The notes beneath the pieces were generated by a model that worked only from the letters and a program-made list of their open reading frames with translations, was not told the DNA's origin and ran no database searches. The translations under genes and the position numbers were made by a program. From a bacterium (GTDB taxonomy: Bacteria; Sysuimicrobiota; Sysuimicrobiia; Sysuimicrobiales; Segetimicrobiaceae), in assembly GCA_035295165.1 (NCBI GenBank), contig DATGJN010000085.1, forward strand, positions 34,707-98,706: DNA of 64,000 nt, written 5' to 3'. Every line of letters starts with the position of its first letter. Positions within the stretch are counted from its first letter, which is position 1. Shown one piece after another: positions 11,116 through 35,418 of the stretch.

Positions 11116-14100
11116 GTGAAGACTCCTTCGACCGACGACGAGCACAACCCGCGGACACCGCTCTCCATGCTCATCGTCGGAGACCGCCCAACCGACAGTG
11201 CCCTGGTGGTCGACAAACTTCGCCAGCACGGGTTCGACGTCGAGTGGCACCGCGTGGAGCACGAGTCGGACTACCTGGCACGCCTCAGCCCTGAACTGGA
11301 TGTCATCGTGGTCGACGACGGCCTGCTGCAGGTGGACGCCCGCCGCGCGATCGCGCTGGCGAAGGACCGCAACCTCGATGTGCCGATCGTCGTGGCCGTG
11401 GCGGCGCTCGGAGACGAAGCCGAGGCGTTGGTGAGCCGGTGGGGCGCCACCGATTGCGTGGTCAAGCCACACCTGCCGCTGCTTGCGCACGTGGTGGAAC
11501 GAGCGCGGACCCACCGACGCCTGCGACACGAACAGACGCAACTCCGCCGACGCTTGGACGCGTTCGTCGAAAATAGCTACGACGCCCTCGCGTTGATCGG
11601 TGACGATCTGAGAGTTCGGTACGCGAGCCCCTCGATTCGCCGCGTCATGGGCATCGAACTCAACGATTTCGTCGGACACGAAATTCTGGAGTTCGTGCAC
11701 GCCGATGACCACGAGCAGGTCCGCCGCGCCTACGACGCGCTCCGCCGCGATCCGACCCGCACGCAGGCGTCGCTCATCAGGCACCGACACGGAGATGGGT
11801 CCTGGCGCTTGGTGGAGATCACCCGCCGCAACCTCCTCGCCGAACCCAGCGTGCGCGCCATCGTGGTCAACTTCCGGGACGTGACGGAGCGCGAAACGGC
11901 GCAGAACGCGCTGCAACAAAGCGCATCGCGGTATCGAGGTTTGTTCGAGAGGGTGCCCATCGGACTGTACCTGACCCGCACCAACGGGACGTTCGTGGAC
12001 GCCAATCCAGCGTTCCTCGAGATGCTCGGGTATCCGGACCGCGCCACCCTTCGAGGAATCAACGCGACCTCGCTGTACGTCGACCCGGGCGCCCGCGAGC
12101 GGCTCACCGAGGCGCTCGAACGCGACGGTGTCGTGACGGGGTGGGAAAGCGCGCTCCGTCGGCGGGACGGCACGATCCTCTGGGGACGAGCGAACGTGCG
12201 CGCCGTTCACGACCCGACCGGCGAGGGGGACGGCCTCGAAGGCGCCATCATCGATATCACCGACCAACGCGCCGCCGAGACCGCCCTGCGGGACAACGAG
12301 CAGCGTTTCCGCGCATTGATCGAACACGGTTTTGATATCATCCTGCTCCTCGACCGACGCGGCATCATCCAGTACGCCAGCCCCTCCGCCGAGCGCGTCC
12401 TCGGCTACGAGCCCGACGCTCTCCTCGGCCGCGACCGCCTCGAGCTCGTCCACCCCGACGACCGCGCCGAACTGCGGCATCGGTTTGCGAGCCTGGTCGA
12501 GCACCCGGACGGGCAGGCGTTCACGCAAGCTCGGCTGCGGCACCGGGACGGCACGTGGCGCTGGACGGAGTCGGTGGCGACCAACCTGCTTCATGATTCC
12601 AGTGTGCAGGCCGTGGTGGCGAACTACCGCGACATCACCGTGCGAAAGTTGGCAGAGGAAGAGAACCAGCGACGTGCGGCACACCTCGAGACGATCAACG
12701 CGATCGTGGCGGCCGCCGTGTCGGCGCGCGACCTGGGGCAACTGCTGGAGCACACGGTCGACCTGACGCTCCACGCGCTGGGGCATACGATGGGGGGCAT
12801 CTGGATCGGGACGGAACATCGGGGCAGCGGCATGTCGGCGGACGTGGGCCCGTCGATCCTGCGGGCGGCGGCGTCGCTGGGGCAGGTCCTTGACGCCTCG
12901 GAGGCCGTCGCGGACGCGCGTGCGCCCGACGCGCACGGGTTGGCATCCGTAATGAAGGGCCTCGGCATTCTCGCCTGGATCGCCGCGCCTATCCGGGCCG
13001 GGGGACGCGCGATCGGGGGCATCGCCGTGGCGTCACCGGTGCCGTGCGCGTGGCGCCCGGACGAGACTGCGCTCGTGGAGACCGTGGGACGGCAGATCGG
13101 CGAGGCGGCCGAGCGGCTGGATCTGTTGCAACGCGCCGAACGGCGCACGGCGGAGTTGTTGGCGGTCACAGACCTCGGCCGCCGGCTCCGCGAGGCGGCA
13201 AGTGTGACCGACATGTACCCCATCATCGTCGAACACGCCATGCAGGTGCTCGCGAGTGAACACGGAGCCCTCGCGCTCTTGAACGAAGACGAAGAGTCCT
13301 TCACGCGGGTGTACGCGAGGGGGGTCTCAACGGAACCGCCCGGATCGACGTTCCCCGCGGCCGGCAGTCGATCGATGGAGGTTGTGCGAACGGGCATCCC
13401 GCGTGTGGCCAAAGATATCGGCGAGGAGCAGCGTCCGCCGTGGATGGATCACTTCAGCTACCGAGACTTCGGCCCGTACCTCGTGGTGGCGGTGCGATCC
13501 GAAGCGGAGAGCATCGGGACCCTCACGCTGCTCCGACGGAAGACCGGCCAGGATCGATCGTTCAGCGAGGACGACGTGCGCGTGCTGATGGGGATTGCCG
13601 AAATCGCCGGCTCGGCCATCCGGCGAGGACGCCTGCAACAAAGCCTGGAGCAATCGTACATCGAGATGGTGCTCGCGCTAGCCCGGGCCGTGGACGCCCG
13701 GGACAGCTACACCGGCGACCACAGCGAGCGCATCGCCGCACGAGCCGTCGCAACGGCGCGAGCGCTCGGATGCACCGACGATGAGACACAGACCATCCAT
13801 TGGGCCGCGTTGCTGCATGACATCGGCAAGCTCAGCGTGCCCGATCAGATCCTCAAGAAGCCCAGCCCGCTCACGGCGGCCGAGTGGGATGTCATGCGCG
13901 AGCATCCCACGATCGGCGAACAGATCTTGCGGCCGATCGAACGGATGCATGGGGTCGCCGCGATCATTCGCCACCACCACGAACGATGGGATGGTACGGG
14001 CTATCCCGACCGTCTGCAGGGCGACGAGATCCCGCTCGGGGCCCGTATTCTCGCGGTGGCCGACGCCTACAGCGCCATCATCGATACTCGAGCGTACGAC

Positions 14101-15288
14101 GCGGGCAGGCCCAAGAACGAGGCGATCGCGGAGATCCGCCAGTGCGCCAGCACGCAGTTCGATCCCGCCGTCGCCGACGTCTTCTGCCGTGTGATCGAGC
14201 ACGCCGACGCGGCGATCGTCCCGGTCGCGGAGATGGCCTCTGCGGGCAATGAGTCCATCCGATCACTGGCCTCGGCGGTGGTACAGCCGTTTCAGCAAAA
14301 CCGGCACCTCCGCCGCGCCGCCCCGGCGGTGGCGGACGTGGCACAACGACTCCTGCGGCCCCTCGATCTCACGGCCGTGCTCGAGGCGATCCTGAGCCAG
14401 ATCCAGAGTGTGTTCGGGTATCCGATCTGCGGCGTGCTTCTGCTGGATGAGCGGACCCGAGAGCTGCGCGTGGCCGCCCAGCGCGGGTTCGATCCCGATG
14501 TCGTGACCGGACTGCGGCTCCGGGTCGGCGAGCAAGGGATCGCCGGCTGGGTCGCGCAGCGGGGACGGTCCTACTACGCGCCTGACGTTACCCTGGATTC
14601 TCTGTACGTCGCGGGGTCATCGTCCGCGCGGTCGAACGTCGCGTTTCCGCTGATGGTCGACGACCGGACAATCGGTGTCCTGGACGTCGAGAGCCCGAGC
14701 GTCGACGCGTTCCCGAAGGAAACCCGCGAATTCCTCGCGACGTTCGCGGTCCTCGCCGCGCTTGCCATTCTCCGCGCCCAACGGGACGAGAATCTCAGCG
14801 AGCTCGCGCGCACCGACGGGTTGACCGGCCTCGCGAACCATCGGGCGATCCTGCAGGATCTCGAGCGCGAGATCGTACGCGCCCGCCGCAGCGGCCACCC
14901 CGTGTCGGTGGCGCTCGTAGAGATCGATGGGTTCAAGCGGCTCAACGACAAGTTCGGTCACCTGCAGGGCGATCTGGTGCTGCGGGAGGTGGCCGACGTG
15001 CTCCGCCGGCATTCTCGCGCCGGCGATCTCGTCGGGCGGTTCGGCGGCGACGAGTTCGTGCTGGTGCTGCCCCAGGCGACAAAGAACGTGGCCGCACAGA
15101 TCGTGGAGCGAGTGCGGGGGCACGTCGAGGAGATCCGCGTCCCGGGCAACGAGCGCACGTTGAGCGTCAGCATCGGACTGGCCGCCCATCCCGCCGACGG
15201 CGACGATCCGGACGGTCTTCTGGAATCGGCAGATCACGCCATGTATCAGGCGAAGCGCAACGGCGGCAACCGCGTGTGCGTAGCCTAA
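11116..15288 (+). CDS. multidomain c-di-GMP signalling protein: REC-like – 3x PAS – 2x GAF – HD-GYP – GAF – GGDEF
   Basis: A 1390-aa ORF. N-terminal receiver-like fold (LIVGD...DVIVVDDG...CVVKP). Three PAS blocks. GAF domains. An HD-GYP domain (HDIGK ... HHERWDGTGYP). A C-terminal GGDEF domain with intact RxxD I-site and GGDEF motif (RAGDLVGRFGGDEF). Confidence 0.9.
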   Translation: MKTPSTDDEHNPRTPLSMLIVGDRPTDSALVVDKLRQHGFDVEWHRVEHESDYLARLSPELDVIVVDDGLLQVDARRAIALAKDRNLDVPIVVAVAALGDEAEALVSRWGATDCVVKPHLPLLAHVVERARTHRRLRHEQTQLRRRLDAFVENSYDALALIGDDLRVRYASPSIRRVMGIELNDFVGHEILEFVHADDHEQVRRAYDALRRDPTRTQASLIRHRHGDGSWRLVEITRRNLLAEPSVRAIVVNFRDVTERETAQNALQQSASRYRGLFERVPIGLYLTRTNGTFVDANPAFLEMLGYPDRATLRGINATSLYVDPGARERLTEALERDGVVTGWESALRRRDGTILWGRANVRAVHDPTGEGDGLEGAIIDITDQRAAETALRDNEQRFRALIEHGFDIILLLDRRGIIQYASPSAERVLGYEPDALLGRDRLELVHPDDRAELRHRFASLVEHPDGQAFTQARLRHRDGTWRWTESVATNLLHDSSVQAVVANYRDITVRKLAEEENQRRAAHLETINAIVAAAVSARDLGQLLEHTVDLTLHALGHTMGGIWIGTEHRGSGMSADVGPSILRAAASLGQVLDASEAVADARAPDAHGLASVMKGLGILAWIAAPIRAGGRAIGGIAVASPVPCAWRPDETALVETVGRQIGEAAERLDLLQRAERRTAELLAVTDLGRRLREAASVTDMYPIIVEHAMQVLASEHGALALLNEDEESFTRVYARGVSTEPPGSTFPAAGSRSMEVVRTGIPRVAKDIGEEQRPPWMDHFSYRDFGPYLVVAVRSEAESIGTLTLLRRKTGQDRSFSEDDVRVLMGIAEIAGSAIRRGRLQQSLEQSYIEMVLALARAVDARDSYTGDHSERIAARAVATARALGCTDDETQTIHWAALLHDIGKLSVPDQILKKPSPLTAAEWDVMREHPTIGEQILRPIERMHGVAAIIRHHHERWDGTGYPDRLQGDEIPLGARILAVADAYSAIIDTRAYDAGRPKNEAIAEIRQCASTQFDPAVADVFCRVIEHADAAIVPVAEMASAGNESIRSLASAVVQPFQQNRHLRRAAPAVADVAQRLLRPLDLTAVLEAILSQIQSVFGYPICGVLLLDERTRELRVAAQRGFDPDVVTGLRLRVGEQGIAGWVAQRGRSYYAPDVTLDSLYVAGSSSARSNVAFPLMVDDRTIGVLDVESPSVDAFPKETREFLATFAVLAALAILRAQRDENLSELARTDGLTGLANHRAILQDLEREIVRARRSGHPVSVALVEIDGFKRLNDKFGHLQGDLVLREVADVLRRHSRAGDLVGRFGGDEFVLVLPQATKNVAAQIVERVRGHVEEIRVPGNERTLSVSIGLAAHPADGDDPDGLLESADHAMYQAKRNGGNRVCVA

Positions 15289-15745: not shown

Positions 15746-15837
15746 AGTAGGTGAACTCGGTCTCTCCCGCAGCACCGATTCGCGCGCTCGGAGGTGGCCC
15801 CGCATTGAACGGAGATCCCACGGATCGTCGCCGCCAG

Positions 15838-16341
15838 GTGGCGGTGCTGGCGGCGTCTCCTCTCGCCCCGATCCCCTCGGGCGCTCGCCGTCTCGCCGTC
15901 AACGGAACCGTCCACAGCGTTCGCCTCCCGCCGGATACCCCGCTGCTGTATGTCCTCCGAGACGAATTGCATCTGCACGGACCGCGCTTCGGCTGCGGGC
16001 TCGGTCAGTGCGGGGCGTGTACGGTCCTGCTCGACGGCACCGCGGTGCGGTCATGTACCCTCCCCGTTTCCGCCGTCGGCGACCTGCCGGTCACGACCCT
16101 GGAGGGCCTGGGTACCCCCGATCGGCCGCATGCGGTGCAGCAGGCGTTCATCGAGGAACAGGCGGTGCAGTGCGGGTACTGCATCAACGGCTGGATCATG
16201 ACGACGGTGTCGCTCCTGGCGAAGACGCCCAATCCGAGCGACCCCCAGATTCGGTCCGCCTTGTCGGGCTTGATCTGCCGCTGCGGCGCGCACATGCGGA
16301 TCTTCAGGGCGGTCAGACGCGCCGCTCAACAGCGGAGCTGA
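15838..16341 (+). CDS. (2Fe-2S)-binding subunit of xanthine dehydrogenase-family aldehyde oxidoreductase (IorA/CoxS-like)
   Basis: It has the two cluster motifs CGxGxCGAC (GCGLGQCGACTV) and QCGYCxxG...CRCG. The start is uncertain (GTG at 15751 or 15838). Its stop lies 8 nt before the large subunit. Confidence 0.8.
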   Translation: MAVLAASPLAPIPSGARRLAVNGTVHSVRLPPDTPLLYVLRDELHLHGPRFGCGLGQCGACTVLLDGTAVRSCTLPVSAVGDLPVTTLEGLGTPDRPHAVQQAFIEEQAVQCGYCINGWIMTTVSLLAKTPNPSDPQIRSALSGLICRCGAHMRIFRAVRRAAQQRS

Positions 16342-16348
16342 GGGAGAG

Positions 16349-18634
16349 ATGCGCATGCGGCGCCCATGGGCTCTCTCTCGACGCCGGTTCCTCAAGACCT
16401 CAGGTGCGATCGTCGTCGCCTTCGCGATGCCGCCGGCGGTCCTTGGCTCGCACCCGGACGCCGCCGGGGCCGCGCCGGCTCGAAACGCCTCGGCGGACCC
16501 GGCACAGTTGGATTCGTGGTTGGCGATCGCTGGGAACGGCAGCGTCACGGTGCTCACAGGCAAGGTCGAGCTCGGGATGGGCGTGTCGACAGCCTTTGCG
16601 CAGATCGTGGCCGAGGAACTCGACGTCCCCGTCCGGGCGGTTTCGGTCGTGATGGGAGACACCGCGAGGACACCCGATCAGGGGGGCGTAGGCGGAAGTA
16701 CGTCGATCTCGATCGGCGCCAAGCCGGTCCGGCAGGCGGCCGCGGAGGCCCGGCGGGTGTTGTTGGACCTTGCGTCGGCCCGCCTCGGGGCGCCGGCCGC
16801 CCAGCTCTCCGTCCGCGATGGCGTCGTACGGCGGGTGGACGACCCGACCCGCACCGCGTCGTACGGGGAGCTGATCGGTGGACGACACTTTGATGTCGCG
16901 CTCACAGCCGGCGGTGGAAGCTACACGCTCGGTGTGACGGGGAGCGCCCGGCCGAAATCTCCGGACCAGTACACGATCGTCGGCACCTCGGTGCCGCGCA
17001 TTGACATCCCTGACAAGGCGACCGGCCGGTTTACGTATGTGGTCGACGTGCGTGTCCCCGGTATGGTGCACGGCCGGGTCATCCGTCCTCCGGTCCCCGG
17101 GGCAACACTGCTCCGCGCCGAAGACGCGCCAGGCGTGCCGGGGTTGATCAAGGTCGTGACGAGAGGAAACTTCGCCGGGGTCGTGGCCGAAACCGAGTGG
17201 GGCGCGATTCAGGCGGCGCGAACGCTTACCCTGAAGTGGTCCATCACGACCGCGACCTGGCCAGCCATGGCCGACCTGTACGCTGCGATGTGGGCCATGC
17301 CCGCCCGCACACGCCGGGTGATGGCACAGGTCGGCGATGTGGACGGGGCCTTGGCGTCGGCGGGTCGCACGATTCAGGCCCGCTACGAGTGGCCCTTCCA
17401 AGCGCACGCGATGATGGGCCCCGGTTGCGCGGTGGCCGAGGTTCGTGATCGAGGGGCCACGGTTTGGTCAAGTACGCAGCATCCGCACCAACTCCAGCGG
17501 GGGATAGCCGAACTACTCGGCTTCCCGGCCGACGCCGTGCATGTGATCTGGGTGGAAGGCGCCGGCTCGTACGGCCGCTCCGGGGCCGAAGACGTGGCGG
17601 GTGACGCCGCCCTGCTGTCGCAGGCCGTGGGCCGGCCGGTGCGCGTGCAGTGGATGCGAGCAGACGACACCGCGTGGGACCCCAAGGGACCGCCGGTCGT
17701 CATGGCGGTCCGCGCGGGCTTGGACGAGCGAGGGACCATCGTCGCCTGGGACTACCTGGCGCGCGCGTTCTCCGGCAGCGGGATTCCGCCGAGCCCGGCC
17801 ACCGCGGGGAACCTGCTCGCGGGTCAGTTGACGGGACGGTCGGCGGCAGGCGTCGACGTCCCCACGACCGTGCAAGAAAATTACGCGTTCGCGGCCAAAC
17901 GCAAAGTCGGCGAGATCGTCCCCTGGCCCCAAGACGGCTCGCCGCTGCGCACGTCCAACCTGCGGGCTCCCAGCCAGCCGGCCACCACGTTTGGCGGGGA
18001 GTCGTTCGTGGACGAGATCGCGGCCGCCGTCGGGGTCGATCCGCTGGAGTTCCGCCTGCGCTATCTCCGGAACCCGCGCGACCTCGCGGTGGTGCGAGCG
18101 GCCGCCCAGCGTGCCGGGTGGACCTCGCGACCGTCGCCGCAATCGGGCATCTCGCGCTCGGGCCTGGCCACGGGCCGCGGCATCGCCTACGCGCCGCGCG
18201 GCAACACCTTGGTTGCGACCGTCGCCGAGGTGGAGGTCAACCAGGCGACCGGACAGGTCCACGTGACTCGCCTGGTGATCGCCCACGACTGCGGGTTGAT
18301 CATCAACCCGGATGGCCTCCTCGGGACGATTGAGGCAAACGCGGTGCAGTCGACGAGCCGGTCCCTCAAGGAGGAGGTACACTGGGGTCCGTCCGGCGTG
18401 ACCAGCGTGGATTGGGTCACGTACCCGATTCTTCGGGCGCCGGAGATCCCCGATCACATCGAGGTCGTCCTGATCAACCGCCCGGATCTGCCGCCGTTTG
18501 GAGCCGGGGAACCTGCGTCGGTGACGACGGCGCCGGCCATTGCCAACGCGATCTTCGACGCGACGGGCGCGCGGTTACGCACCGTCCCGTTCACGCCTGC
18601 GCGGGTCAAGACCGCGCTTCAACACCGCGCCTAG
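16349..18634 (+). CDS. molybdopterin-binding subunit of xanthine dehydrogenase-family aldehyde oxidoreductase (IorB-like), TAT-exported
   Basis: 761 aa with a twin-arginine signal (SRRRFLKTSGAIVVAF), GAGGGA upstream, and the aldehyde-oxidase/xanthine-DH a/b hammerhead and MoCo-binding blocks. Confidence 0.9.
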   Translation: MRMRRPWALSRRRFLKTSGAIVVAFAMPPAVLGSHPDAAGAAPARNASADPAQLDSWLAIAGNGSVTVLTGKVELGMGVSTAFAQIVAEELDVPVRAVSVVMGDTARTPDQGGVGGSTSISIGAKPVRQAAAEARRVLLDLASARLGAPAAQLSVRDGVVRRVDDPTRTASYGELIGGRHFDVALTAGGGSYTLGVTGSARPKSPDQYTIVGTSVPRIDIPDKATGRFTYVVDVRVPGMVHGRVIRPPVPGATLLRAEDAPGVPGLIKVVTRGNFAGVVAETEWGAIQAARTLTLKWSITTATWPAMADLYAAMWAMPARTRRVMAQVGDVDGALASAGRTIQARYEWPFQAHAMMGPGCAVAEVRDRGATVWSSTQHPHQLQRGIAELLGFPADAVHVIWVEGAGSYGRSGAEDVAGDAALLSQAVGRPVRVQWMRADDTAWDPKGPPVVMAVRAGLDERGTIVAWDYLARAFSGSGIPPSPATAGNLLAGQLTGRSAAGVDVPTTVQENYAFAAKRKVGEIVPWPQDGSPLRTSNLRAPSQPATTFGGESFVDEIAAAVGVDPLEFRLRYLRNPRDLAVVRAAAQRAGWTSRPSPQSGISRSGLATGRGIAYAPRGNTLVATVAEVEVNQATGQVHVTRLVIAHDCGLIINPDGLLGTIEANAVQSTSRSLKEEVHWGPSGVTSVDWVTYPILRAPEIPDHIEVVLINRPDLPPFGAGEPASVTTAPAIANAIFDATGARLRTVPFTPARVKTALQHRA

Positions 18635-18721
18635 CGGGGTTGGCGCACTCAGCCCCGCGCGGATCCCGGGCTCCAGCGGGTTCGCGGTCAGCCGGAGCCC
18701 ACGCGTTCCATAGTCCTCCGC

Positions 18722-19501
18722 TCAACCCGGCACAGGAGCCAGCACCCGGACCGGGCTCCCGCTCCCGTCCACGATCTTCAGCGGCGCCGCGATGACCACC
18801 GCGCCGGTGGGCGGAACTCGATCGAGATTGCAAAGGCTGGCCAGCCCGAACTTTCCAGCCCCGTGCATGATCGCGTGGTTGGAAAAGGGCGGGTCGAAGG
18901 TACCGGCCTGGCCCGCATCGGTCCCCACCGTCTCGACACCCACCCCGAGGATATCCCGTTCTCTGACCAGGAATTCGGACGCCGACTTGTGAAAACCGGG
19001 GCTGTGTGCGCCGTCGTTACGCACATTGAGGAATTTCTTGGGGTCGCGGCGCTTGCTCCACGCCGTGTACAGTAGCACCCACGACGCGGCGGGGATGCGG
19101 CCGTACCGCGCCTCCCAGGCCGCTATGTGCGCGGGCATCACCAAGTAGTCCTGATTGCGCTCGACCTCGACCGTCACATCGATCACGACCGCCGGGCCGA
19201 CGAAGTTGCGGGCCGGAATCGTGTCGCAGGCGTTGTTGGGTAGGTCCTTGCCTGTGACCCAGTGGATCGGCGCATCGAAGTGCGTTCCGGTGTGCTCCCC
19301 GAGGTGCACCGTGTTCCAGTACCAGGCCGGCCCCCGGTCGTCATAGCGAGAAATCGCGTCCATGGAAAACGGCGGGGATGGACCGAACATGGGCGGCAGA
19401 CCGATGACGGGTGTTCCCGGCTCCAGCGGTTGCGTGAGATCCACGACCTTGACCCGTTGCGCCCTGAGCTCCTCGACCAGCTGCCCCAACACGCTCGCCA
19501 C
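18722..19501 (-). CDS. cyclase family protein (kynurenine formamidase-like)
   Basis: 259 aa with the HxGTHxDxPxH motif (HLGEHTGTHFDAPIH). Confidence 0.85.
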   Translation of the reverse strand: MASVLGQLVEELRAQRVKVVDLTQPLEPGTPVIGLPPMFGPSPPFSMDAISRYDDRGPAWYWNTVHLGEHTGTHFDAPIHWVTGKDLPNNACDTIPARNFVGPAVVIDVTVEVERNQDYLVMPAHIAAWEARYGRIPAASWVLLYTAWSKRRDPKKFLNVRNDGAHSPGFHKSASEFLVRERDILGVGVETVGTDAGQAGTFDPPFSNHAIMHGAGKFGLASLCNLDRVPPTGAVVIAAPLKIVDGSGSPVRVLAPVPG

Positions 19502-19580
19502 GTCACGGCTCCCTTCCGGTCAGTTCTCTCGTTCGTTCCGAACCTTGCGTGACCGACCCATCCGAGTCTCTCAGATGCTG

Positions 19581-20159
19581 TCATTCCTTCGGGGCGCGCC
19601 AACTACGTAGCTGTCGCTGGAATTGAAAGCGGTTCTCCAGCATGGAGAGGTCGGTCAAGTAGACCGGCGGGCCCGTGGCCTCCACTTTCGCCACAAGGGT
19701 CGTCAAGGCATTCGCCCGAAGCGCGTCATCGAACGCAGCCGTGAACTCCGCGACGGTGTGCACCGTCGACGTGCGCGGCACACCGGCGGCGGCGGCGATT
19801 CCGGCGATGTCGCTCCCGGTCGCGGTCGCCGTGGGAAACCCGCCCACGGAAAGGAGACTCTCGTTGTCAAACACGACGTGCACGAGGTTGCGCGGACGAT
19901 AGCGCGCCAAGGTGGTCAGGGCGCCCAGGTTCATCAAGATCGACCCATCCCCGTCCAGCACGACCACCTGCAACTCCGGACGCGCGAGTGCGATCCCCAA
20001 CCCCATGGAGGAGGCGAGCCCCATCGCGTGCAGCAGGTAGAAGAACCCCGGCCGATGTCCGAGCGACTGCAGCTCCGCCGACACGGCTCCCATGATCGTG
20101 ACCACGACACACCGTTCCAGCCTCGGATAGACCGCCCGCAACGCGTCGATCCGGAGCAT
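19581..20159 (-). CDS. comE: sulfopyruvate/phosphonopyruvate decarboxylase beta subunit (ComE-like TPP-binding domain)
   Basis: 192 aa with the TPP-binding GDG...N region (VVLDGDGSILMNLGAL...NES). Confidence 0.75.
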   Translation of the reverse strand: MLRIDALRAVYPRLERCVVVTIMGAVSAELQSLGHRPGFFYLLHAMGLASSMGLGIALARPELQVVVLDGDGSILMNLGALTTLARYRPRNLVHVVFDNESLLSVGGFPTATATGSDIAGIAAAAGVPRTSTVHTVAEFTAAFDDALRANALTTLVAKVEATGPPVYLTDLSMLENRFQFQRQLRSWRAPKE

Positions 20160-20196
20160 CAGTCCGTCACCGTTGGCAGCCGGCGGGTGCGAGCGG

Positions 20197-20709
20197 TTAG
20201 TCTTCCCACATCAGATCCCGGCACAACAGGAGCGCGACCGGCTTGAGCGACGACTCCGCCAACGTTTGCGCTTGTCCGATCCGATGCGCCACGTGGGTGG
20301 GCGCGTCCAACCGTTCGTAGGGGATATCGAGGGCCCGCAACACGGGCTCAGTTGCCCCGCCGCCCTCGGTCTGCCATGGATCTCGCTCGCCGAACTCGCC
20401 GCGGTAGCTGATCAGCATCAGCAGCGGGATCCGGTAGAGGCGCGCCAGCGAGACGATACCGTTCACGCTTGCGAGCAGCCCGTGGTTCTGCAGGAGCATC
20501 GCAGACTTTACTCCCGCCAGGTACGCGCCCGCAGAAATACCGACCCCTTCTTCCTCCTTGGCGAGACGCACGAGAATCATCTCCGGGTCGTCTTCCGCGA
20601 TCTGCAGCAGGTGCACGAGCCACGTCTCCGGGAGGGCAGAAAGCAGTCTGATTCCACAGGATTTCAACGCGTCGTAGACCATTCGCGAGTTCTTTACGGA
20701 AACCGGCAC
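20197..20709 (-). CDS. comD: sulfopyruvate/phosphonopyruvate decarboxylase alpha subunit (ComD-like TPP pyrimidine-binding domain)
   Basis: 170 aa. The N-terminal TPP-enzyme PYR domain lies directly upstream of the ComE-like gene, the split arrangement typical of ComDE. Confidence 0.75.
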   Translation of the reverse strand: MPVSVKNSRMVYDALKSCGIRLLSALPETWLVHLLQIAEDDPEMILVRLAKEEEGVGISAGAYLAGVKSAMLLQNHGLLASVNGIVSLARLYRIPLLMLISYRGEFGERDPWQTEGGGATEPVLRALDIPYERLDAPTHVAHRIGQAQTLAESSLKPVALLLCRDLMWED

Positions 20710-20929
20710 GTTCGCCTCGACGTCTTCATCATTGTCCTCCTCGAACGATGCCCGGCCCTGAAACCGCTACGATATTCACCCGCCGGCGGACGAACGCCTG
20801 CCCTACCCGCGGCCCCGGTCGGGCGGTCCTGCGCGCGCACCGGAGATGCCCTCTCGTTGGATCGCGGGGATCGGCCGAGACGGCGCAGACGGGGCGCCGT
20901 GCCACGGATCAGGCGATGGTTGCGCGTCC

Positions 20930-21826
20930 TCATACGGCGCGCAGCGCCTCGCTGACCCGCCGAATCGCGTCGCGGTGCGCCCGCGGTGAGGAGAGGCCGA
21001 CCCGCATCGTGCTTACGCTGACATGGGTCCCCCCGATCGCCCGCCACTCCGCGACAACACGCGCCCACTCGGCGGGCGACTCCGCATACCCGAGACGGCG
21101 CTCAAGCCCGATGGTCCCGGCATCGCGGCCGGCTTCCTTGGCGTATGCTCGAATCTTCGCGACCATCGCGCGGTAGCCGTCCGTGACCGGGGGAAAGCGG
21201 GACGTGGGTGAGACAATACCTCCCCCGGCCATCCATCCGTCCGCCATCCGCGCCACGCGCCGGAACACGGCATCGCTCTCCCCGCCCATCCAGACCGGAA
21301 TCGGACGCTGCACCGGCAGTGGGTTAATCCCGGCGCGGTCGATGTGGTGCCAGCGGCCATGGAAGGTGACGATCTCCTGCGTCCAGAACGCCCGCAGCAC
21401 CGCGACCTGCTCCTCAATGCGCTGGCCACGAGACTTGAAGTCTGCCCCAACCGCCTCAAACTCCGCGCTGTTCCAGCCGACGCCAACACCGAGGCGGAGC
21501 CGCCCGCCGCTCAGCAGGTCGACTTCGGCGGACTGTTTGGCGACGAGGGCGGTTTGGCGCTGGGGCAGTACCAGGATGCCGTTCGTGAGTTCGATGCGAC
21601 TCGTGACCCCTGCGAGATAGCCGAACAGGACGAACGGCTCGTGGAACATGTCCCGGTGCGTGTATCCGAGCCAGTTGTCCTCGCGCGGTACGACGCCAAG
21701 GATGTGGTCGTACGCGATGAGGTGATCGTACCCGAGATCCTCCGCCGCCCTGGCGAAATCTGCAGCGTCCGAAGGATCCGCCCCGAGCTCCGTCTGAGGG
21801 AATACCACGCCGACCTTCACGAGCAC
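20930..21826 (-). CDS. LLM-class F420-dependent oxidoreductase (luciferase-like monooxygenase family)
   Basis: 298 aa. Sequence blocks are typical of TIGR03619-like F420-dependent LLM oxidoreductases (GVGVGWNSAEFEAVG..., HHIDRAGINP). Confidence 0.8.
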   Translation of the reverse strand: MLVKVGVVFPQTELGADPSDAADFARAAEDLGYDHLIAYDHILGVVPREDNWLGYTHRDMFHEPFVLFGYLAGVTSRIELTNGILVLPQRQTALVAKQSAEVDLLSGGRLRLGVGVGWNSAEFEAVGADFKSRGQRIEEQVAVLRAFWTQEIVTFHGRWHHIDRAGINPLPVQRPIPVWMGGESDAVFRRVARMADGWMAGGGIVSPTSRFPPVTDGYRAMVAKIRAYAKEAGRDAGTIGLERRLGYAESPAEWARVVAEWRAIGGTHVSVSTMRVGLSSPRAHRDAIRRVSEALRAV

Positions 21827-22133
21827 CCTCCGGCAACTCGTTGTCGCTTAGCGGGCCCAGCGGGCATGCGAACGCCGCTGCGCCCCGTCGATGTCGCGAA
21901 CCATTTCTCGTCTCGCCGCTCGCATTCCCGCGGAACGGCCTCCCGACTCGCACGCCCGGGTTGCCCGTGGCTTCTCCGCGGCCGACCCGCGCCGCCATGT
22001 CGTTGGCCGTCGCGCCACTGTCCTCTCCCTTGCACGCTCGACGACAACGTAATCCTGGAAGCCGAGCGAATGGAGTGGCCCCAGATGACGGCGACCGCGC
22101 GGGTAGCGAAGCGTGATCGTGTACCTGTCTGGC

Positions 22134-22946
22134 TCAACGTGATGTCTTGCTCCGAGGTGCCCCGGGATCGGCACGTTCCGTCAACACCACCAAGCCATGA
22201 GGATTGCGCAGCAGCAGTCGCTGGCGGCCGGCGTCGATGAGCCCCTGCAACTGCCACCGGCTGACAATGCGACTTGCGGTGTACAGCGTGGTCCCGGCCA
22301 GTCCGGCCAGATCTCCGCGCGAGAGCGGCATATCGAGCAGAACGCCCCCGTCCACTTTGCGGCCGGCGTGATCGGCCAACCGCAGGACGGCCTGTGCGAG
22401 CCGTTGTTCCGCCCGATCCGCAACCTGCTCGGAGAACCGAGATTGCATCTCGAGCATCCGCGCGGTCACGATGCGAAGGACGTTGACCACAAGCGCAGGG
22501 TACCGTGCGAACAGGGTGGCGATCGTCCGACTGTCCCATACCAGTGCTTCCGCCGGAGCGGTCGCTTCGGCCGACACGGGGTACGTCGTTCCCCTTAACG
22601 CGGCGACGGTGCCAAACGCGTCACCGTGCCCGATCACCTGGATGATCACCTCCTGCCCGTCCTGGTGCACGAGCGTGAGCTTGATCTTGCCGCGGACAAG
22701 CACGTACATCGCGACCGCAGGGTCTCCCTGGCGGAACAACAGCGCCTTGCGGGGCGCCCGCGCCCGACTAGAGACTCGCACGACAGACGCGCGGGCGGCC
22801 GGCGAGAGGCCCCGGAACAGCGCGACAGGCCCAAGAAGATCGTCCGACTGGTCCACGGGCACCCTCACCACCTCCACGTGGAGCCGCGCGGCTCTGTGGT
22901 TCCGCCGGTCCGGGACACGCGCAATGCAAGTCCTCGGCCGCGACAC
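22134..22946 (-). CDS. Crp/Fnr family transcriptional regulator
   Basis: A cNMP-binding fold (LFRGLSPAA...FRQGDPA...YVLVRGKIKL) plus a C-terminal HTH (RGDLAGLAGTTLYTASRIVSRW). The true start is probably downstream of the first ATG. Confidence 0.8.
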   Translation of the reverse strand: MSRPRTCIARVPDRRNHRAARLHVEVVRVPVDQSDDLLGPVALFRGLSPAARASVVRVSSRARAPRKALLFRQGDPAVAMYVLVRGKIKLTLVHQDGQEVIIQVIGHGDAFGTVAALRGTTYPVSAEATAPAEALVWDSRTIATLFARYPALVVNVLRIVTARMLEMQSRFSEQVADRAEQRLAQAVLRLADHAGRKVDGGVLLDMPLSRGDLAGLAGTTLYTASRIVSRWQLQGLIDAGRQRLLLRNPHGLVVLTERADPGAPRSKTSR

Positions 22947-23169
22947 CCGTGGATTCCGAAGACTACCGTTGGGGTTCGATCTCGGGCATGCGGAATCCCG
23001 GCGCCGTCAAGGTGAGGCCACCATGGCGAAGCCACATGCGCATCTCTAATCTCTTCTCTCTCGTTCACTTCAACGATTACGTCGGTCCGCTCGCCGTCCC
23101 ATCACCGATCTGGTTCGACCGCGCCTATCATTCCGACCACGGATCTTGACGCAGCAGACCTCGCCGGCG

Positions 23170-23373
23170 TCATCCGCAGGCGCGGCGCAACGCATCGACC
23201 AGTTCGGTCGGAGAAATATGGTAGGCTTCGGCCACGTCCGCCACCGACTCGAACCGTGCAATCGGGCAGCCCACGCACGCCATACGACGATGGATAAACA
23301 CGCGCGCGGTCCGCGGCCAACGCCGCAACACCTCGGCAACGGGGAGACGGGCAAGCATCGTGGGCGAGAGCAT
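23170..23373 (-). CDS. DUF1858 domain protein (small redox/NO-associated protein)
   Basis: An internal start gives about 67 aa: MLSPTMLARLPVAEVLRRWPRTARVFIHRRMACVGCPIARFESVADVAEAYHISPTELVDAL, which matches the DUF1858 pattern (CxGCP...ETLEEAA). Confidence 0.65.
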   Translation of the reverse strand: MLSPTMLARLPVAEVLRRWPRTARVFIHRRMACVGCPIARFESVADVAEAYHISPTELVDALRRACG

Positions 23374-34261: not shown

Positions 34262-34572
34262 CGACGCGCCTCCTCCGCTCCCACGGCTTTGGAGCAGCCA
34301 GTTCCGCGCGGGATTTGCATCTCCTACCCAATGCGGCGTTCATTGCCCCGCTGAATGACGGAGCGGCGTCGCGGCGATCCGCTGACTAGGGACAGGCGCG
34401 GCACGCGGGAGATACCGAGCCGTGGAATGAGGAGGCATCCTGTCCGAGCACGCGGAAGACACGCACGATTGTGCCGAGGCTGTCCCGACCGGGCAGGCGG
34501 CGCGTTTTCACAGTCGTAGTTGCCCGGCCGCAGAAGCCATGAGCCGTGTCTGGAAGGGGTGCACTGAGCCAT

Positions 34573-35418
34573 ATGCCGTCCGTTGCCGACAAACGCCGCG
34601 TGTTTCGCCGGCTCCATGAGTCCGGATGCTTTGTCATTCCCAACCCCTGGGACGTCGGGACGACGCGCTACCTCCAGCATCTCGGGTTCAAGGCGCTTGC
34701 GACCACGAGCGCGGGGGCGGCGTTCTCGATGGGGCTGCCCGATGCGGACTGGGCACTGACGCGAGATCCGATGCTTGCCCACATCCGCTCGATCGTGGAC
34801 GCGGCTGATGTACCCGTGAACGCGGACTTCGAGTCGGGGTATGCAGACGAGCCCGCGGAACTTGCCCAAAACGTGCTGCGGTGCGTCGAGACAGGCGTTG
34901 CAGGGCTGTCAATTGAGGATTCGACCGGCGACGCATCGAGGCCGCTGTATCCGTTCGACCTTGCCGTGGCCCGCATCCGCGCGGCGCGCGCCGCGATCGA
35001 TCAGGTTGGTGGCGATGTGTTGCTCGTCGGCCGGACTGAAGGGTTCATCGCCGGGGCACCCGACCTTGACGAAACGCTGCGGAGGTTGAAGGCGTATGCG
35101 ACGGCTGGTGCCGATTGTCTGTACGCGCCCGGGATTCACACGCGCGAGCAGATCCGGGCGGTGGTCGAGGCAGTGGCGCCGAAGCCGGTCAATCTCCTGA
35201 TCGGCGGCGCGATCGGGCTGACGGTCAACGACGCGGCAGATCTCGGAGTTCGTCGGATCAGCGTTGGCGGTGCGCTTGCGCGGACCGCCTGGCGCGGGTT
35301 CATGCGCGCGGCGCGGGATCTCGCCGCCGGGAAGTTCGACAGTTTTTCGGACGCAGCGTCGGGAGCCGATCTTAACCGCCTGTTTACCGACGACGCAAAA
35401 CGCCGCTTGCCATCCTAG
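34573..35418 (+). CDS. isocitrate lyase / PEP mutase family protein (methylisocitrate lyase / oxaloacetate decarboxylase-like)
   Basis: TIM-barrel ICL/PEPM blocks (GCFVIPNPWDVG, ADFESGY, GLSIEDS). The KxCGH motif of true PEP mutases was not seen. Confidence 0.8.
   Translation: MPSVADKRRVFRRLHESGCFVIPNPWDVGTTRYLQHLGFKALATTSAGAAFSMGLPDADWALTRDPMLAHIRSIVDAADVPVNADFESGYADEPAELAQNVLRCVETGVAGLSIEDSTGDASRPLYPFDLAVARIRAARAAIDQVGGDVLLVGRTEGFIAGAPDLDETLRRLKAYATAGADCLYAPGIHTREQIRAVVEAVAPKPVNLLIGGAIGLTVNDAADLGVRRISVGGALARTAWRGFMRAARDLAAGKFDSFSDAASGADLNRLFTDDAKRRLPS

What the first reader, a model, noticed from the sequence alone, without database searches (positions are those of the whole stretch)
18722..21826. 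Split ComD/ComE-type TPP decarboxylase clustered with an F420-dependent LLM oxidoreductase and a cyclase
Separate alpha and beta subunits (comD, comE) are the hallmark of the sulfopyruvate decarboxylase of coenzyme M biosynthesis. The bacterial phosphonopyruvate decarboxylases of phosphonate pathways usually sit beside a PEP mutase. The only PEP-mutase-family gene here lies 14 kb away and lacks the KxCGH motif. Neighbours are a cofactor F420-dependent luciferase-like oxidoreductase and a kynurenine-formamidase-like cyclase, an uncharacterised combination. This may be a sulfonate (sulfolactate/sulfoacetaldehyde) or a novel 2-oxoacid pathway.
Basis: partly seen in the sequence, partly recalled or inferred. 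Interest (0 to 1): 0.6.

Follow-up and report, generated by a model that had tools for sequence, protein, structure and literature searches.

The report
Split thiamine decarboxylase with isatin hydrolase
A three-gene unit found in many uncultured soil bacteria, and often mislabelled as a coenzyme-M/sulfonate enzyme, most likely opens isatin-like ring compounds and then removes CO2 from the resulting aromatic keto-acid, a step in bacterial indole/auxin breakdown for which I found no assigned enzyme.

Summary
The four genes are real and sit at the stated coordinates, all on the minus strand: an F420-type LLM oxidoreductase, TPP alpha, TPP beta and a PF04199 "cyclase". Comparison with other genomes changes the interpretation.

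- **Conserved unit.** It is TPPalpha-TPPbeta-cyclase. This order holds in 66 of 80 species-level genomes from at least 8 phyla. The LLM gene is not conserved.
- **The cyclase.** It is about 57% identical to solved isatin hydrolases (E 6e-93) and far from kynurenine formamidase (E 1e-6). It forms a subfamily in which Mn-ligand Gln219 is Ala and Tyr204 is Phe.
- **The TPP pair.** It forms a clade of its own (bootstrap 100). It is 60-87% identical within the clade but only 26-41% identical to ComDE, phosphonopyruvate decarboxylases and other split pairs. It scores below all their curated cut-offs. Polar residues shared by ComE and AepY are replaced by Leu, Val and Phe.
- **Members without the hydrolase.** Five of the ten head aromatic catabolic operons.
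- **No sulfonate or phosphonate genes.** No pepM, xsc or comABC lies in the window or in the 7-8 kb checked on each side.

Best model (inferred, confidence about 0.45): isatin-like lactam → aryl 2-oxoacid (isatinate) → 2-aminobenzaldehyde + CO2. The sulfonate and phosphonate readings are rejected. "Novel 2-oxoacid pathway" is supported.

The parts
20197..20709 (-). TPP alpha subunit (PYR domain, 170 aa) of a two-subunit thiamine-diphosphate decarboxylase. Starts at GTG 20709. Family-invariant motifs: LPETWLVH, KEEEG (presumed catalytic Glu), QNHGFLA, DPWQT.
   Evidence: (TIGR03845 131 bits, below cut-off 148)
19581..20159 (-). TPP beta subunit (PP domain, 192 aa). Has GDG-X25-DN for Mg/diphosphate binding, followed by the family-specific DNESLLSVGGFPT.
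   Evidence: (Ppd 129 bits and ComE 127 bits, both below cut-off)
18722..19501 (-). Isatin-hydrolase-like metal amidohydrolase (PF04199, 259 aa). Belongs to a subfamily with Phe at LaIHA Tyr204 and Ala at the Mn-ligand Gln219. All other catalytic and Trp-cage residues are kept.
   Evidence: (5NNA E 6e-93)
20930..21826 (-). F420-type luciferase-like oxidoreductase (TIGR03619 family, 298 aa), 220 bp upstream of TPP alpha. A local accessory or an unrelated neighbour, not part of the conserved unit.
   Evidence: 271 bits, above cut-off 167; no orthologue in 80 related loci
15751..18634 (+). Two-subunit molybdenum hydroxylase / aldehyde oxidoreductase: a [2Fe-2S] subunit at 15751-16341 and a MoCo-binding subunit at 16349-18634. 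Convergent with the operon. A possible but weakly supported partner, either oxidising the aldehyde or hydroxylating an N-heterocycle.
   Evidence: A homologous pair (43-59% identity) lies directly upstream of TPP alpha in L030 only.

Best explanation
The conserved unit is a three-gene operon, TPPalpha-TPPbeta-hydrolase.

**Step 1 (inferred from about 57% identity to solved isatin hydrolases).** The PF04199 enzyme is a metal-dependent amidohydrolase. It opens isatin, or a close flat aromatic alpha-keto-lactam or amide, to an aryl 2-oxoacid. From isatin the product is isatinate (2-aminophenylglyoxylate).

**Step 2 (inferred).** The alpha and beta subunits form a heteromeric thiamine-diphosphate enzyme of the ComDE/Ppd/LumKL type, with a pocket that has been made hydrophobic. 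It decarboxylates that aryl 2-oxoacid to the aldehyde (2-aminobenzaldehyde) and CO2.

**Step 3 (weakly inferred, not encoded in the conserved unit).** The aldehyde is oxidised to anthranilate by a host aldehyde oxidoreductase. In this window the convergent Mo enzyme is a candidate.

The F420 LLM gene is a contig-specific neighbour. At most it supplies an accessory carbonyl/alcohol redox step.

What is shown: gene content, conservation, clade separation and residue patterns. The substrates and the order of steps are inferred.
For: 1. **Hydrolase identity.** The hydrolase matches isatin hydrolase A (5NNA/5NNB) at E 6e-93, RsIHA at 2e-89 and IHB at 4e-71. Kynurenine formamidases match at only 1e-5 to 1e-6. 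TIGR03035 scores 36 bits against a cut-off of 223.
2. **Catalytic residues.** H69, H73, D75, H79, D193 and H207 are invariant in all 55 members aligned. Each of the cage Trp residues W59, W61 and W80 is kept in 54 of 55 (residue roles from PMC6117287).
3. **Chemical fit.** The product of isatin hydrolase is an alpha-keto acid, the substrate class of TPP decarboxylases. The two enzymes would therefore catalyse consecutive steps, which explains a stand-alone operon.
4. **Conserved adjacency.** It holds in 66 of 80 GTDB species genomes from Chloroflexota, Acidobacteriota, Gemmatimonadota, Planctomycetota and others. Seen from the hydrolase side, 38 of 51 JGI loci carry it. The same five genes occur in two different orders.
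5. **Separate TPP clade.** Bootstrap support is 100. Identity within the clade is at least 60%, against 26-41% to ComDE, AepY and other split pairs.
6. **Hydrophobic pocket.** After the Mg motif, the Tyr, Thr and Gln residues shared by ComE and AepY become Leu, Val and Phe. In alpha, VPC(K/S) becomes LPETW.
7. **Aromatic context.** Members without the hydrolase have the same motifs. They head aromatic operons: HpaB plus catechol 2,3-dioxygenase in 4 loci, pcaHGBD plus a PobA-like gene in 1, and PaaABCD lies upstream in L003.
8. **Precedent.** LumK/LumL is a two-subunit TPP decarboxylase. It acts on an aromatic 2-oxo-type acid made by amidohydrolases and is followed by a Mo hydroxylase (PMC12746152).
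9. **Open step in the literature.** Isatin → isatinic acid → anthranilate is documented from metabolites, but I found no enzyme assigned to the second step (PMC8383072, PMC6221969).
Against: - The Gln219 Mn ligand, described as conserved in isatin hydrolases, is Ala here, and Tyr204 is Phe. The true substrate may therefore differ from isatin.
- No aldehyde dehydrogenase and no indole- or IAA-oxidising genes are conserved beside the unit. The source of isatin and the fate of the aldehyde are not encoded.
- Canonical (Tyr/Gln) isatin hydrolases in Proteobacteria sit in indole- or IAA-type clusters without this TPP pair.
- Nine of 51 Phe/Ala-type hydrolase loci have no TPP gene. Two of them (the same arrangement) sit beside a TDO-like gene and a kynureninase-like gene, where a formamidase would be expected.
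- Characterised members of the superfamily use 3-substituted pyruvates or a heterocyclic acid, not arylglyoxylates.
- Nothing here is biochemical.
Confidence: 0.45

Rival explanations
1. Same module, different substrate: a tryptophan- or kynurenine-derived route. The hydrolase acts as an arylformamidase or deacylase on an N-acyl aromatic amine. A class-V PLP enzyme (aminotransferase-like or kynureninase-like) makes a 2-oxoacid. The TPP pair then decarboxylates an aryl- or aroyl-pyruvate, that is, a 3-substituted pyruvate like the known ComDE and Ppd substrates.
For: - A class-V PLP gene and an SNF-family amino-acid/amine transporter travel with the unit in 11 GTDB loci. They also do so in at least 5 JGI loci (plus 4 truncated ones), in two gene orders.
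- The hydrolase subfamily lies beside a TDO-like gene and a kynureninase-like gene in L138/L143. It lies beside an amino-acid permease plus an M20 peptidase in L160/L165.
- The loss of Gln219 and Tyr204 suggests altered specificity.
- The HpaB context would also fit 4-hydroxyphenylpyruvate → 4-hydroxyphenylacetate.
Against: - The hydrolase is about 90 orders of magnitude closer in E-value to isatin hydrolases than to KynB. It keeps the closed Trp cage suited to a small flat ligand.
- The minimal and commonest form has no PLP enzyme and no TDO, so the two enzymes would not be consecutive.
- The window has no AT5 or SNF homologue.
Confidence: 0.25
2. A heterocycle-carboxylate decarboxylase of the LumK/LumL kind. 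The hydrolase opens or trims a fused N-heterocycle (an alloxazine, quinoxaline, pteridine or oxindole derivative). The TPP pair removes the carboxyl group next to a C=N or C=O in the ring. A Mo hydroxylase then re-oxidises that carbon.
For: - LumK/LumL does exactly this after three amidohydrolases and before xanthine-oxidase-type LumJ (PMC12746152).
- This window and L030 have a Mo hydroxylase next to the unit.
- L012 has a P450 directly upstream. L025 has an amidase and an amidohydrolase upstream.
Against: - None of the other Lum marker genes (Rieske dioxygenase, LumU-type P450, large XO with an FAD domain) recurs in the 80 loci.
- In N. simplex the letter order of the lum genes (lumH to lumM) suggests that the gene after lumL is lumM, a 52 kDa hydrolase, not a 28 kDa PF04199 protein.
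- LumK/LumL sequences could not be retrieved, so relatedness is untested.
Confidence: 0.12
3. One reading: a sulfopyruvate decarboxylase (sulfolactate, cysteate or coenzyme M metabolism) or a phosphonopyruvate decarboxylase.
For: - Best NCBIfam hits are ComD (131 bits), Ppd (129 bits) and ComE (127 bits).
- JGI names the clade 'sulfopyruvate decarboxylase subunit beta'.
- One related locus has an NMT1-type ABC transporter and an LLM gene nearby.
Against: - All scores are below the curated cut-offs: 148 for ComD, 221.5 for ComE and 312.5 for Ppd.
- Identity to bacterial ComDE and AepY is 26-38%.
- The pair forms a separate clade at bootstrap 100, and ComDE and AepY cluster elsewhere.
- The polar Tyr/Thr/Gln set shared by ComE and AepY is replaced.
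- Genuine ComDE and AepY loci show DHPS-type or aepX/aepZ contexts. None of these appears here or in the 80 relatives.
- The PEP_mutase-family gene lacks EDKxxxxxNS.
Confidence: 0.03

Closest known systems
Sulfopyruvate decarboxylase ComD/ComE (M. jannaschii; bacterial ComDE in Roseobacter-group DHPS/sulfolactate clusters)
   Same: Two small subunits carry the PYR and PP domains without a middle domain. Subunit sizes are similar. The TPP/Mg motif is present. Same superfamily.
   Different: 29-38% identity. Below the TIGR03845/03846 cut-offs. Separate clade. Residues after the Mg motif are hydrophobic (L, V, F) instead of Y, T, Q. No sulfonate-pathway neighbours.
Phosphonopyruvate decarboxylase (AepY/Fom2, single chain; RhiEF, split, PDB 9IZ3/9IZ4)
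   Same: Same superfamily. RhiEF shows that a split architecture also occurs outside CoM metabolism. It is the best PDB hit for both subunits, at E 3e-21 and 2e-15.
   Different: 26-33% identity to AepY. The two subunits score 129 and 76 bits on TIGR03297, whose whole-protein cut-off is 312.5. No PEP mutase with EDKxxxxxNS and no AEP transaminase nearby.
LumK/LumL quinoxaline-carboxylate decarboxylase of Nocardioides simplex (riboflavin/lumichrome catabolism, PMC12746152)
   Same: A two-subunit TPP decarboxylase with an aromatic 2-oxo-type acid substrate. The substrate is generated by amidohydrolases, and the next step is a Mo hydroxylase. This is the closest functional precedent.
   Different: Sequences could not be obtained, so homology is untested. 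The Lum cluster markers are absent around this unit. The partner hydrolase family differs or is unknown.
Isatin hydrolase (LaIHA 5NNA/5NNB, RsIHA 5NMP, LaIHB 4J0N)
   Same: About 57% identity over the full length. The HxGTHxDxPxH metal motif, the Asp193-His207 dyad and the Trp59/61/80 cage are all kept.
   Different: Mn-ligand Gln219 is Ala (Thr in a few members) and Tyr204 is Phe throughout the subfamily. Canonical enzymes sit in indole-monooxygenase or iad-type IAA clusters next to SDRs, not next to a TPP pair.
Benzoylformate decarboxylase (mandelate pathway)
   Same: The proposed reaction type is the same: arylglyoxylate → aryl aldehyde + CO2. The Phe in DNESLLSVGGF lines up by hand with BFDC Phe464 (my alignment). 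There is weak PP-domain similarity at about E 1e-7.
   Different: BFDC is a single chain of about 528 aa with a middle domain and belongs to another branch of TPP enzymes. The resemblance is functional analogy only.
Kynurenine formamidase KynB
   Same: Same Pfam family (PF04199) and the same metal motif.
   Different: E-values of only 1e-5 to 1e-6. TIGR03035 scores 36 bits against a cut-off of 223. KynB has a binuclear Zn site and is about 210 aa.

Membership tests
Sulfopyruvate decarboxylase ComDE | Score at or above the curated equivalog cut-offs (TIGR03845 alpha 147.95; TIGR03846 beta 221.5) | tested here: not met
   131.3 and 127.0 bits
Sulfopyruvate decarboxylase ComDE | Separate PYR (alpha) and PP (beta) subunits | tested here: met
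   Adjacent genes of 170 aa and 192 aa. Not specific to ComDE: RhiEF and LumKL are also split.
Sulfopyruvate decarboxylase ComDE | Groups with known ComE in a phylogeny | tested here: not met
   NJ tree of beta subunits. The window's clade has bootstrap 100. ComDE (bootstrap 100) lies in another part of the tree. Identity is 29-38%.
Sulfopyruvate decarboxylase ComDE | Context of CoM biosynthesis (comA/B/C) or sulfolactate/DHPS degradation (xsc, suyAB, hpsN-type genes) | tested here: not met
   None in the window or in the 7-8 kb checked on each side. None among the recurrent neighbours in 80 loci. Genuine bacterial comDE loci do show this context.
Phosphonopyruvate decarboxylase | TIGR03297 score at or above 312.5 | tested here: not met
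   128.8 bits (beta) and 75.9 bits (alpha)
Phosphonopyruvate decarboxylase | Adjacent PEP mutase carrying EDKxxxxxNS | tested here: not met
   The only PEP_mutase-family gene (34546-35418) is 12.7 kb away and has 'EDS'. It has neither motif. Real aepY loci have aepX next door.
Isatin hydrolase | PF04199 fold with the HxGTHxDxPxH metal motif and the Asp193-His207 dyad | tested here: met
   Invariant in 55 of 55 family members
Isatin hydrolase | Gln219 as fourth Mn ligand ('additionally conserved glutamine', PMC6117287) | tested here: not met
   Ala in the window. Ala in 50 of 55 and Thr in 4 of 55 GTDB members. Ala in 78 of 79 JGI members.
Isatin hydrolase | Aromatic cage Trp59/Trp61/Trp80/Tyr204 | tested here: inconclusive
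   The three Trp residues are kept in 54 of 55. Tyr204 is Phe in all members where the position is present: 54 of 55 in GTDB (one gap) and 79 of 79 in JGI.
Isatin hydrolase | Mn-dependent hydrolysis of isatin to isatinate | not testable with these tools
   Needs an enzyme assay (A368 of isatinate)
Kynurenine formamidase (KynB) | TIGR03035 score at or above 223 | tested here: not met
   36.3 bits. PDB KynB hits at only E 1e-5 to 1e-6.
F420-dependent LLM oxidoreductase, TIGR03619 (Rv2161c) family | Score at or above 166.9 | tested here: met
   271.1 bits
F420-dependent LLM oxidoreductase, TIGR03619 (Rv2161c) family | Host makes F420 (fbi/cof genes), and the enzyme binds F420 | not testable with these tools
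   Only about 79 kb of a 110 kb contig was inspected. No fbi/cof domain was seen.
LumK/LumL heterocycle decarboxylase | Sequence orthology to N. simplex LumK/LumL | not tested
   Sequences are not given in the paper or its SI and were not retrievable here

The most novel reading that the evidence does not exclude
The TPP pair is an isatinate (2-aminophenylglyoxylate) decarboxylase. This would be a fourth substrate class, and the first arylglyoxylate one, for two-subunit ComDE-type TPP enzymes. Together with a Gln-less isatin hydrolase it would form a widespread, horizontally mobile module. At least 238 GTDB species genomes encode a relative of the beta subunit, and the 80 inspected span at least 8 phyla. 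The module would fill the enzyme gap between isatinic acid and anthranilate in indole/IAA/tryptophan breakdown. It is currently annotated as coenzyme-M or sulfonate metabolism.
Probability: 0.4. Interest if true: 0.7.

Novelty: new variant of a known kind. Interest (0 to 1): 0.55.

Why it matters
1. **A testable candidate.** It gives a concrete two-enzyme candidate for the isatinic acid → anthranilate segment of bacterial indole/auxin catabolism. This segment has been known from metabolites since 1995, and I found no enzyme assigned to it.
2. **Wider chemistry.** It would extend the chemistry of the rare two-subunit TPP decarboxylases (ComDE, RhiEF, LumKL) to aromatic 2-oxoacids.
3. **A probable annotation error.** JGI pipelines call this clade 'sulfopyruvate decarboxylase beta'. 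Soil metagenome surveys that count comDE as organosulfonate or CoM metabolism in Acidobacteriota, Gemmatimonadota and Chloroflexota may be counting this unit instead.
4. **A natural experiment.** The Gln219Ala / Tyr204Phe hydrolase subfamily tests the published metal-ligand model of isatin hydrolase.

Tried and rejected
- **Promoter/terminator scan of 18400-23200.** It found no promoter-like site and only one terminator-like site, inside the beta gene and below the number expected by chance. It says nothing about whether the LLM gene is co-transcribed.
- **LLM and Mo-enzyme links.** The LLM, Crp, SDR and GFO neighbours have no orthologues next to the unit in 80 GTDB or 80 JGI loci. The Fer2/MoCoBD pair recurs only in L030.
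- **Literature searches.** Searches for 'isatinate decarboxylase', isatinate + decarboxylase, isatin + 2-aminobenzaldehyde + decarboxylase, and sulfopyruvate decarboxylase + isatin found nothing relevant. The 2014 JBC isatin hydrolase paper is not held.
- **PDB 9U8Q-9U8S.** I suspected these were LumK/LumL. They turned out to be a Streptomyces/Kitasatospora/Micromonospora family only weakly similar to ours (E 5e-10 and 2e-12), with no function found.
- **LumK/LumL sequences.** They are not in the paper, its SI or the cluster look-ups.
- **Specificity changes in hydrolase-less members.** I looked for pocket-motif differences between TPP pairs with and without the hydrolase. There are none in the motifs.
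- **Bootstrap.** A Biopython bootstrap timed out. I replaced it with a numpy-based NJ bootstrap.
- **Plasmid collection.** It holds no member of this clade. The best beta hit is Deinococcus at 45%.

Full report
**Observation.** The window is 64-70% G+C. It corresponds to positions 34707-98706 of a 110.6 kb metagenomic contig, ENA ERZ27279680 k141_1870033 (offset derived). Codon-position GC bias picks out four consecutive minus-strand genes exactly at 18722-21826.
- 20930-21826: a luciferase-like oxidoreductase of 298 aa. PF00296 gives E 8e-50. TIGR03619 'F420_Rv2161c' scores 271 bits against a cut-off of 167.
- 20197-20709: a 170 aa PYR-domain protein. TIGR03845 gives E 3e-38.
- 19581-20159: a 192 aa PP-domain protein. 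TPP_enzyme_C gives E 2e-18.
- 18722-19501: a 259 aa PF04199 'cyclase' at E 8e-40.

It has neither the lyase motif K[KR]CGH nor the PepM motif EDKxxxxxNS.

**What is conserved.** The beta subunit has thousands of relatives. The best 120 clusters are 82-100% identical, and JGI names many of them 'sulfopyruvate decarboxylase subunit beta'. Contigs carrying close relatives show TPPalpha-TPPbeta-cyclase, but the other neighbours vary.

A scan of one genome per GTDB species found 238 genomes with a relative of the beta subunit. The best 80 are all MAGs. By my count from the record titles they comprise 31 Acidobacteriota, 19 Chloroflexota, 18 Gemmatimonadota, 2 each of Planctomycetota, 'Bacillota' and Actinomycetes, and single Entotheonella, Nitrospinota and betaproteobacterial bins.

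In these 80 loci, alpha lies directly upstream of beta in 78, with a median gap of 9 nt. The cyclase lies directly downstream on the same strand in 66. That is 63 of the 73 loci with at least 900 nt of downstream sequence, with a median gap of 49 nt.

The LLM gene has no orthologue in any of these loci, not even in the three closest relatives. Distant LLM paralogues (26-35% identity) occur in four loci. The neighbouring [2Fe-2S]/MoCo pair recurs only in L030.

**The 'cyclase'.** Against the PDB it matches isatin hydrolase A of Labrenzia aggregata (5NNA/5NNB) at E 6e-93, with 314 bits over the full length. It matches the Ralstonia enzyme (5NMP) at 2e-89 and isatin hydrolase B (4J0N) at 4e-71. 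Kynurenine formamidases match at only 1e-5 to 1e-6. The arylformamidase model TIGR03035 gives 36 bits against a cut-off of 223.

I used the residue roles given in PMC6117287.
- The metal ligands His69, His73 and Asp75, the catalytic His79 and the Asp193-His207 dyad are invariant in all 55 family members aligned.
- Each of the cage Trp residues Trp59, Trp61 and Trp80 is kept in 54 of 55.
- Tyr204 is Phe in 54 of 55.
- The fourth Mn ligand, Gln219, is Ala in 50 and Thr in 4.

Eighty further homologues from JGI metagenomes show the same pattern: Phe in 79 of 79 and Ala in 78 of 79.

Proteobacterial homologues behave differently. The Azospirillum thermophilum homologue keeps Tyr and Gln. It sits in an indole-monooxygenase cluster, and the Roseibium aggregatum homologue sits in an iad-like IAA cluster. 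Neither has a TPP pair nearby. The window's protein therefore belongs to a distinct, Gln-less subfamily of isatin-hydrolase-like enzymes. I do not file it as an isatin hydrolase in the strict sense.

**The TPP pair.** It has the expected cofactor features: a presumed catalytic Glu in KEEEG, and GDG-X25-DN. It fails every curated equivalog cut-off.
- ComD: 131 bits against 148.
- ComE: 127 bits against 221.5.
- Ppd: 129 and 76 bits for the two subunits, against a whole-protein cut-off of 312.5.

Concatenated alpha+beta identity is at least 60% (median 73%) within the family across phyla. To reference enzymes taken from annotated plasmids it is much lower:
- 29-38% to bacterial ComDE;
- 26-33% to AepY;
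- 26-30% to a Priestia split pair in a cluster with ATP-grasp genes;
- 35-41% to a Deinococcus split pair.

In the library of 50%-identity representatives, full-length hits drop from at least 53% to at most 48% identity. There are 4448 relatives at E ≤ 0.001.

A neighbour-joining tree of beta subunits gives 100% bootstrap support for the family plus two near representatives. ComDE (100%) and AepY (99%) cluster elsewhere, and the family's nearest neighbours are uncharacterised clades.

The family-invariant motifs differ from those of all references. In alpha, LPETWLVH replaces VPC(K/S/T). Directly after the Mg-binding DN in beta, ComE has DNGSYGSTGDQPT and the family has DNESLLSVGGFPT. That is Tyr→Leu, Thr→Val and Gln→Phe. 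By my own hand alignment this stretch corresponds to the Ala460/Leu461/Phe464 pocket helix of benzoylformate decarboxylase. That correspondence is inference, not a computed result.

**Context of members without the hydrolase.** Ten loci with enough downstream sequence lack the hydrolase. Their pocket motifs are the same as in the rest.
- Four Chloroflexota loci read TPPa-TPPb-HpaB-(CMD-like)-catechol 2,3-dioxygenase. TIGR03211 scores 350 bits against a cut-off of 320.
- One Gemmatimonadota locus reads TPPa-TPPb-PcaH-PcaG-PcaB-PcaD, then a gene not annotated here, then a PobA-like flavoprotein.
- One ENA contig has PaaABCD directly upstream.

This points to an aromatic 2-oxoacid as substrate.

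**A five-gene variant.** A class-V PLP enzyme travels with the unit. It gives weak hits to SufS, and a weak hit to kynureninase that spans the full length. An SNF-family Na+ transporter also travels with the unit. The five genes occur in two different orders. AT5-SNF-TPPa-TPPb-hydrolase is seen in 11 GTDB loci. TPPa-TPPb-AT5-SNF-hydrolase is seen in 5 complete and 4 truncated JGI loci. The shuffled order of the same genes argues for functional coupling. It suggests that in those lineages the substrate is made from an imported amino acid.

Seen from the hydrolase side, 51 JGI loci have at least 700 nt upstream.
- 38 have the TPP pair.
- 4 are cut too short to tell.
- 9 have other partners.

The other partners include a TDO-like gene plus a kynureninase-like gene plus an O-methyltransferase. 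They also include an M20 peptidase plus an amino-acid permease, and an acyl-CoA dehydrogenase, CoA-transferase and MaoC set.

**Mechanism.** The simplest model that makes the two enzymes of the minimal operon consecutive has two steps. The hydrolase opens isatin, or a close analogue, to isatinate, which is an aryl alpha-keto acid. The alpha/beta TPP enzyme then decarboxylates isatinate to 2-aminobenzaldehyde. Oxidation to anthranilate would need an aldehyde oxidoreductase that is not part of the conserved unit.

In this window the convergent two-subunit Mo enzyme (15751-18634) is a candidate for that role. It could equally be an N-heterocycle hydroxylase, or unrelated. F420-type LLMs characteristically do alcohol/carbonyl redox (my knowledge of FGD, Adf and fHMAD). 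The LLM here could interconvert dioxindole and isatin, as the SDR next to canonical isatin hydrolases might. That is speculation, and the gene is not conserved.

All substrate assignments are inferred. Residues, conservation and phylogeny are shown.

**Literature.** Isatin → isatinic acid → anthranilate is documented from metabolites in Bradyrhizobium, Pseudomonas sp. LY1, Alcaligenes and Cupriavidus (PMC8383072, PMC6221969, PMC6117287). Four full-text searches found no isatinate decarboxylase and no link between isatin and ComDE-type enzymes.

Two-subunit TPP decarboxylases are described as rare. The characterised ones are ComDE, RhiEF (9IZ3) and, since 2025, LumK/LumL. LumK/LumL decarboxylates a 3-oxo-3,4-dihydroquinoxaline-2-carboxylate produced by amidohydrolases and is followed by a xanthine-oxidase-type hydroxylase (PMC12141560, PMC12746152). 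This is the closest functional precedent. I could not obtain the LumK/LumL sequences, so relatedness is untested.

**Rivals and verdict.**
- A tryptophan/kynurenine-type route, with a formamidase-like role for the hydrolase and an aryl- or aroyl-pyruvate substrate, is the main rival (0.25).
- A Lum-like heterocycle decarboxylation is possible (0.12).
- Sulfopyruvate or phosphonopyruvate decarboxylation is effectively excluded by cut-offs, phylogeny, residues and context (0.03).
- No pepM, xsc or comABC genes occur in the window or in the 7.8 kb to the left and 7.3 kb to the right of it.

The finding is a real, widespread and apparently uncharacterised variant of a known enzyme kind, with a specific, testable function proposal. 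I score it of moderate interest.

Noticed in passing
Related proteins P0004-P0120: JGI annotation calls this clade 'sulfopyruvate decarboxylase subunit beta', although the window's member scores 127 bits against the TIGR03846 cut-off of 221.5. This looks like a systematic mis-annotation in soil metagenomes.
   Followed up: partly
L009 (Deinococcus taeanensis plasmid NZ_CP083457.1) 4997-14269: A sister split TPP pair (35-41% identity) sits in a PrpD-TPPa-TPPb-PxpA-ACAD-CaiB-MaoC-ALDH-PxpBC-like cluster. This is another pairing of a lactam-opening enzyme with a split TPP decarboxylase and an aldehyde dehydrogenase. Its function is unknown.
   Followed up: no
L072 9484-11821: Two tandem copies of TPPalpha-TPPbeta lie ahead of the HpaB / catechol 2,3-dioxygenase genes in a Chloroflexia MAG.
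   Followed up: no
L138/L143 1977-5780; L160/L165 1994-5780; L116/L126: The Phe204/Ala219 hydrolase subfamily also occurs without a TPP pair. It is found next to a TDO-like gene, a kynureninase-like PLP gene and an O-methyltransferase. It is also found next to an M20 peptidase plus an amino-acid permease, and next to an acyl-CoA dehydrogenase, CoA-transferase III and MaoC.
   Followed up: partly
PDB 9U8Q/9U8R/9U8S; P0301-P0331: A solved two-subunit TPP enzyme of unknown function belongs to a Streptomyces/Kitasatospora/Micromonospora family. It has DTDG instead of GDG. It is only weakly similar to the window's pair (E 5e-10 and 2e-12).
   Followed up: partly
window 34546-35418 (+): An ICL/PEP-mutase-family protein (PF13714, 250 bits) lacks both K[KR]CGH and EDKxxxxxNS, having SIEDSTGD instead. 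It is an uncharacterised branch of the superfamily.
   Followed up: partly
window 11116-15288 (+): A 1390 aa signalling protein with three PAS domains, three GAF domains, an HD-GYP-type HD domain and a GGDEF domain. A second GAF/HD and GAF/GGDEF pair lies just beyond the right end of the window.
   Followed up: no
window 59963-61291 (-): A DDE transposase (DDE_Tnp_1_4) sits among minus-strand catabolic genes. On one side are genes for a NAD-binding dehydrogenase, an RraA-like protein and an Ldh_2 protein. On the other are genes for Fe-ADH, ALDH, GntR, RpiB, further RraA-like proteins and an ABC transporter.
   Followed up: no
P0121 (270 aa): This representative has an N-terminal stretch that, by eye, resembles a class-III aminotransferase, fused to a full beta subunit. 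It is probably a chimeric or frameshifted gene call.
   Followed up: no
L006-L008 1995-7077: Next to one triad lie three DUF3830 genes, an LLM gene and an NMT1-type (SsuA/TauA-like) ABC transporter on the opposite strand. This is the only sulfonate-flavoured context seen.
   Followed up: no
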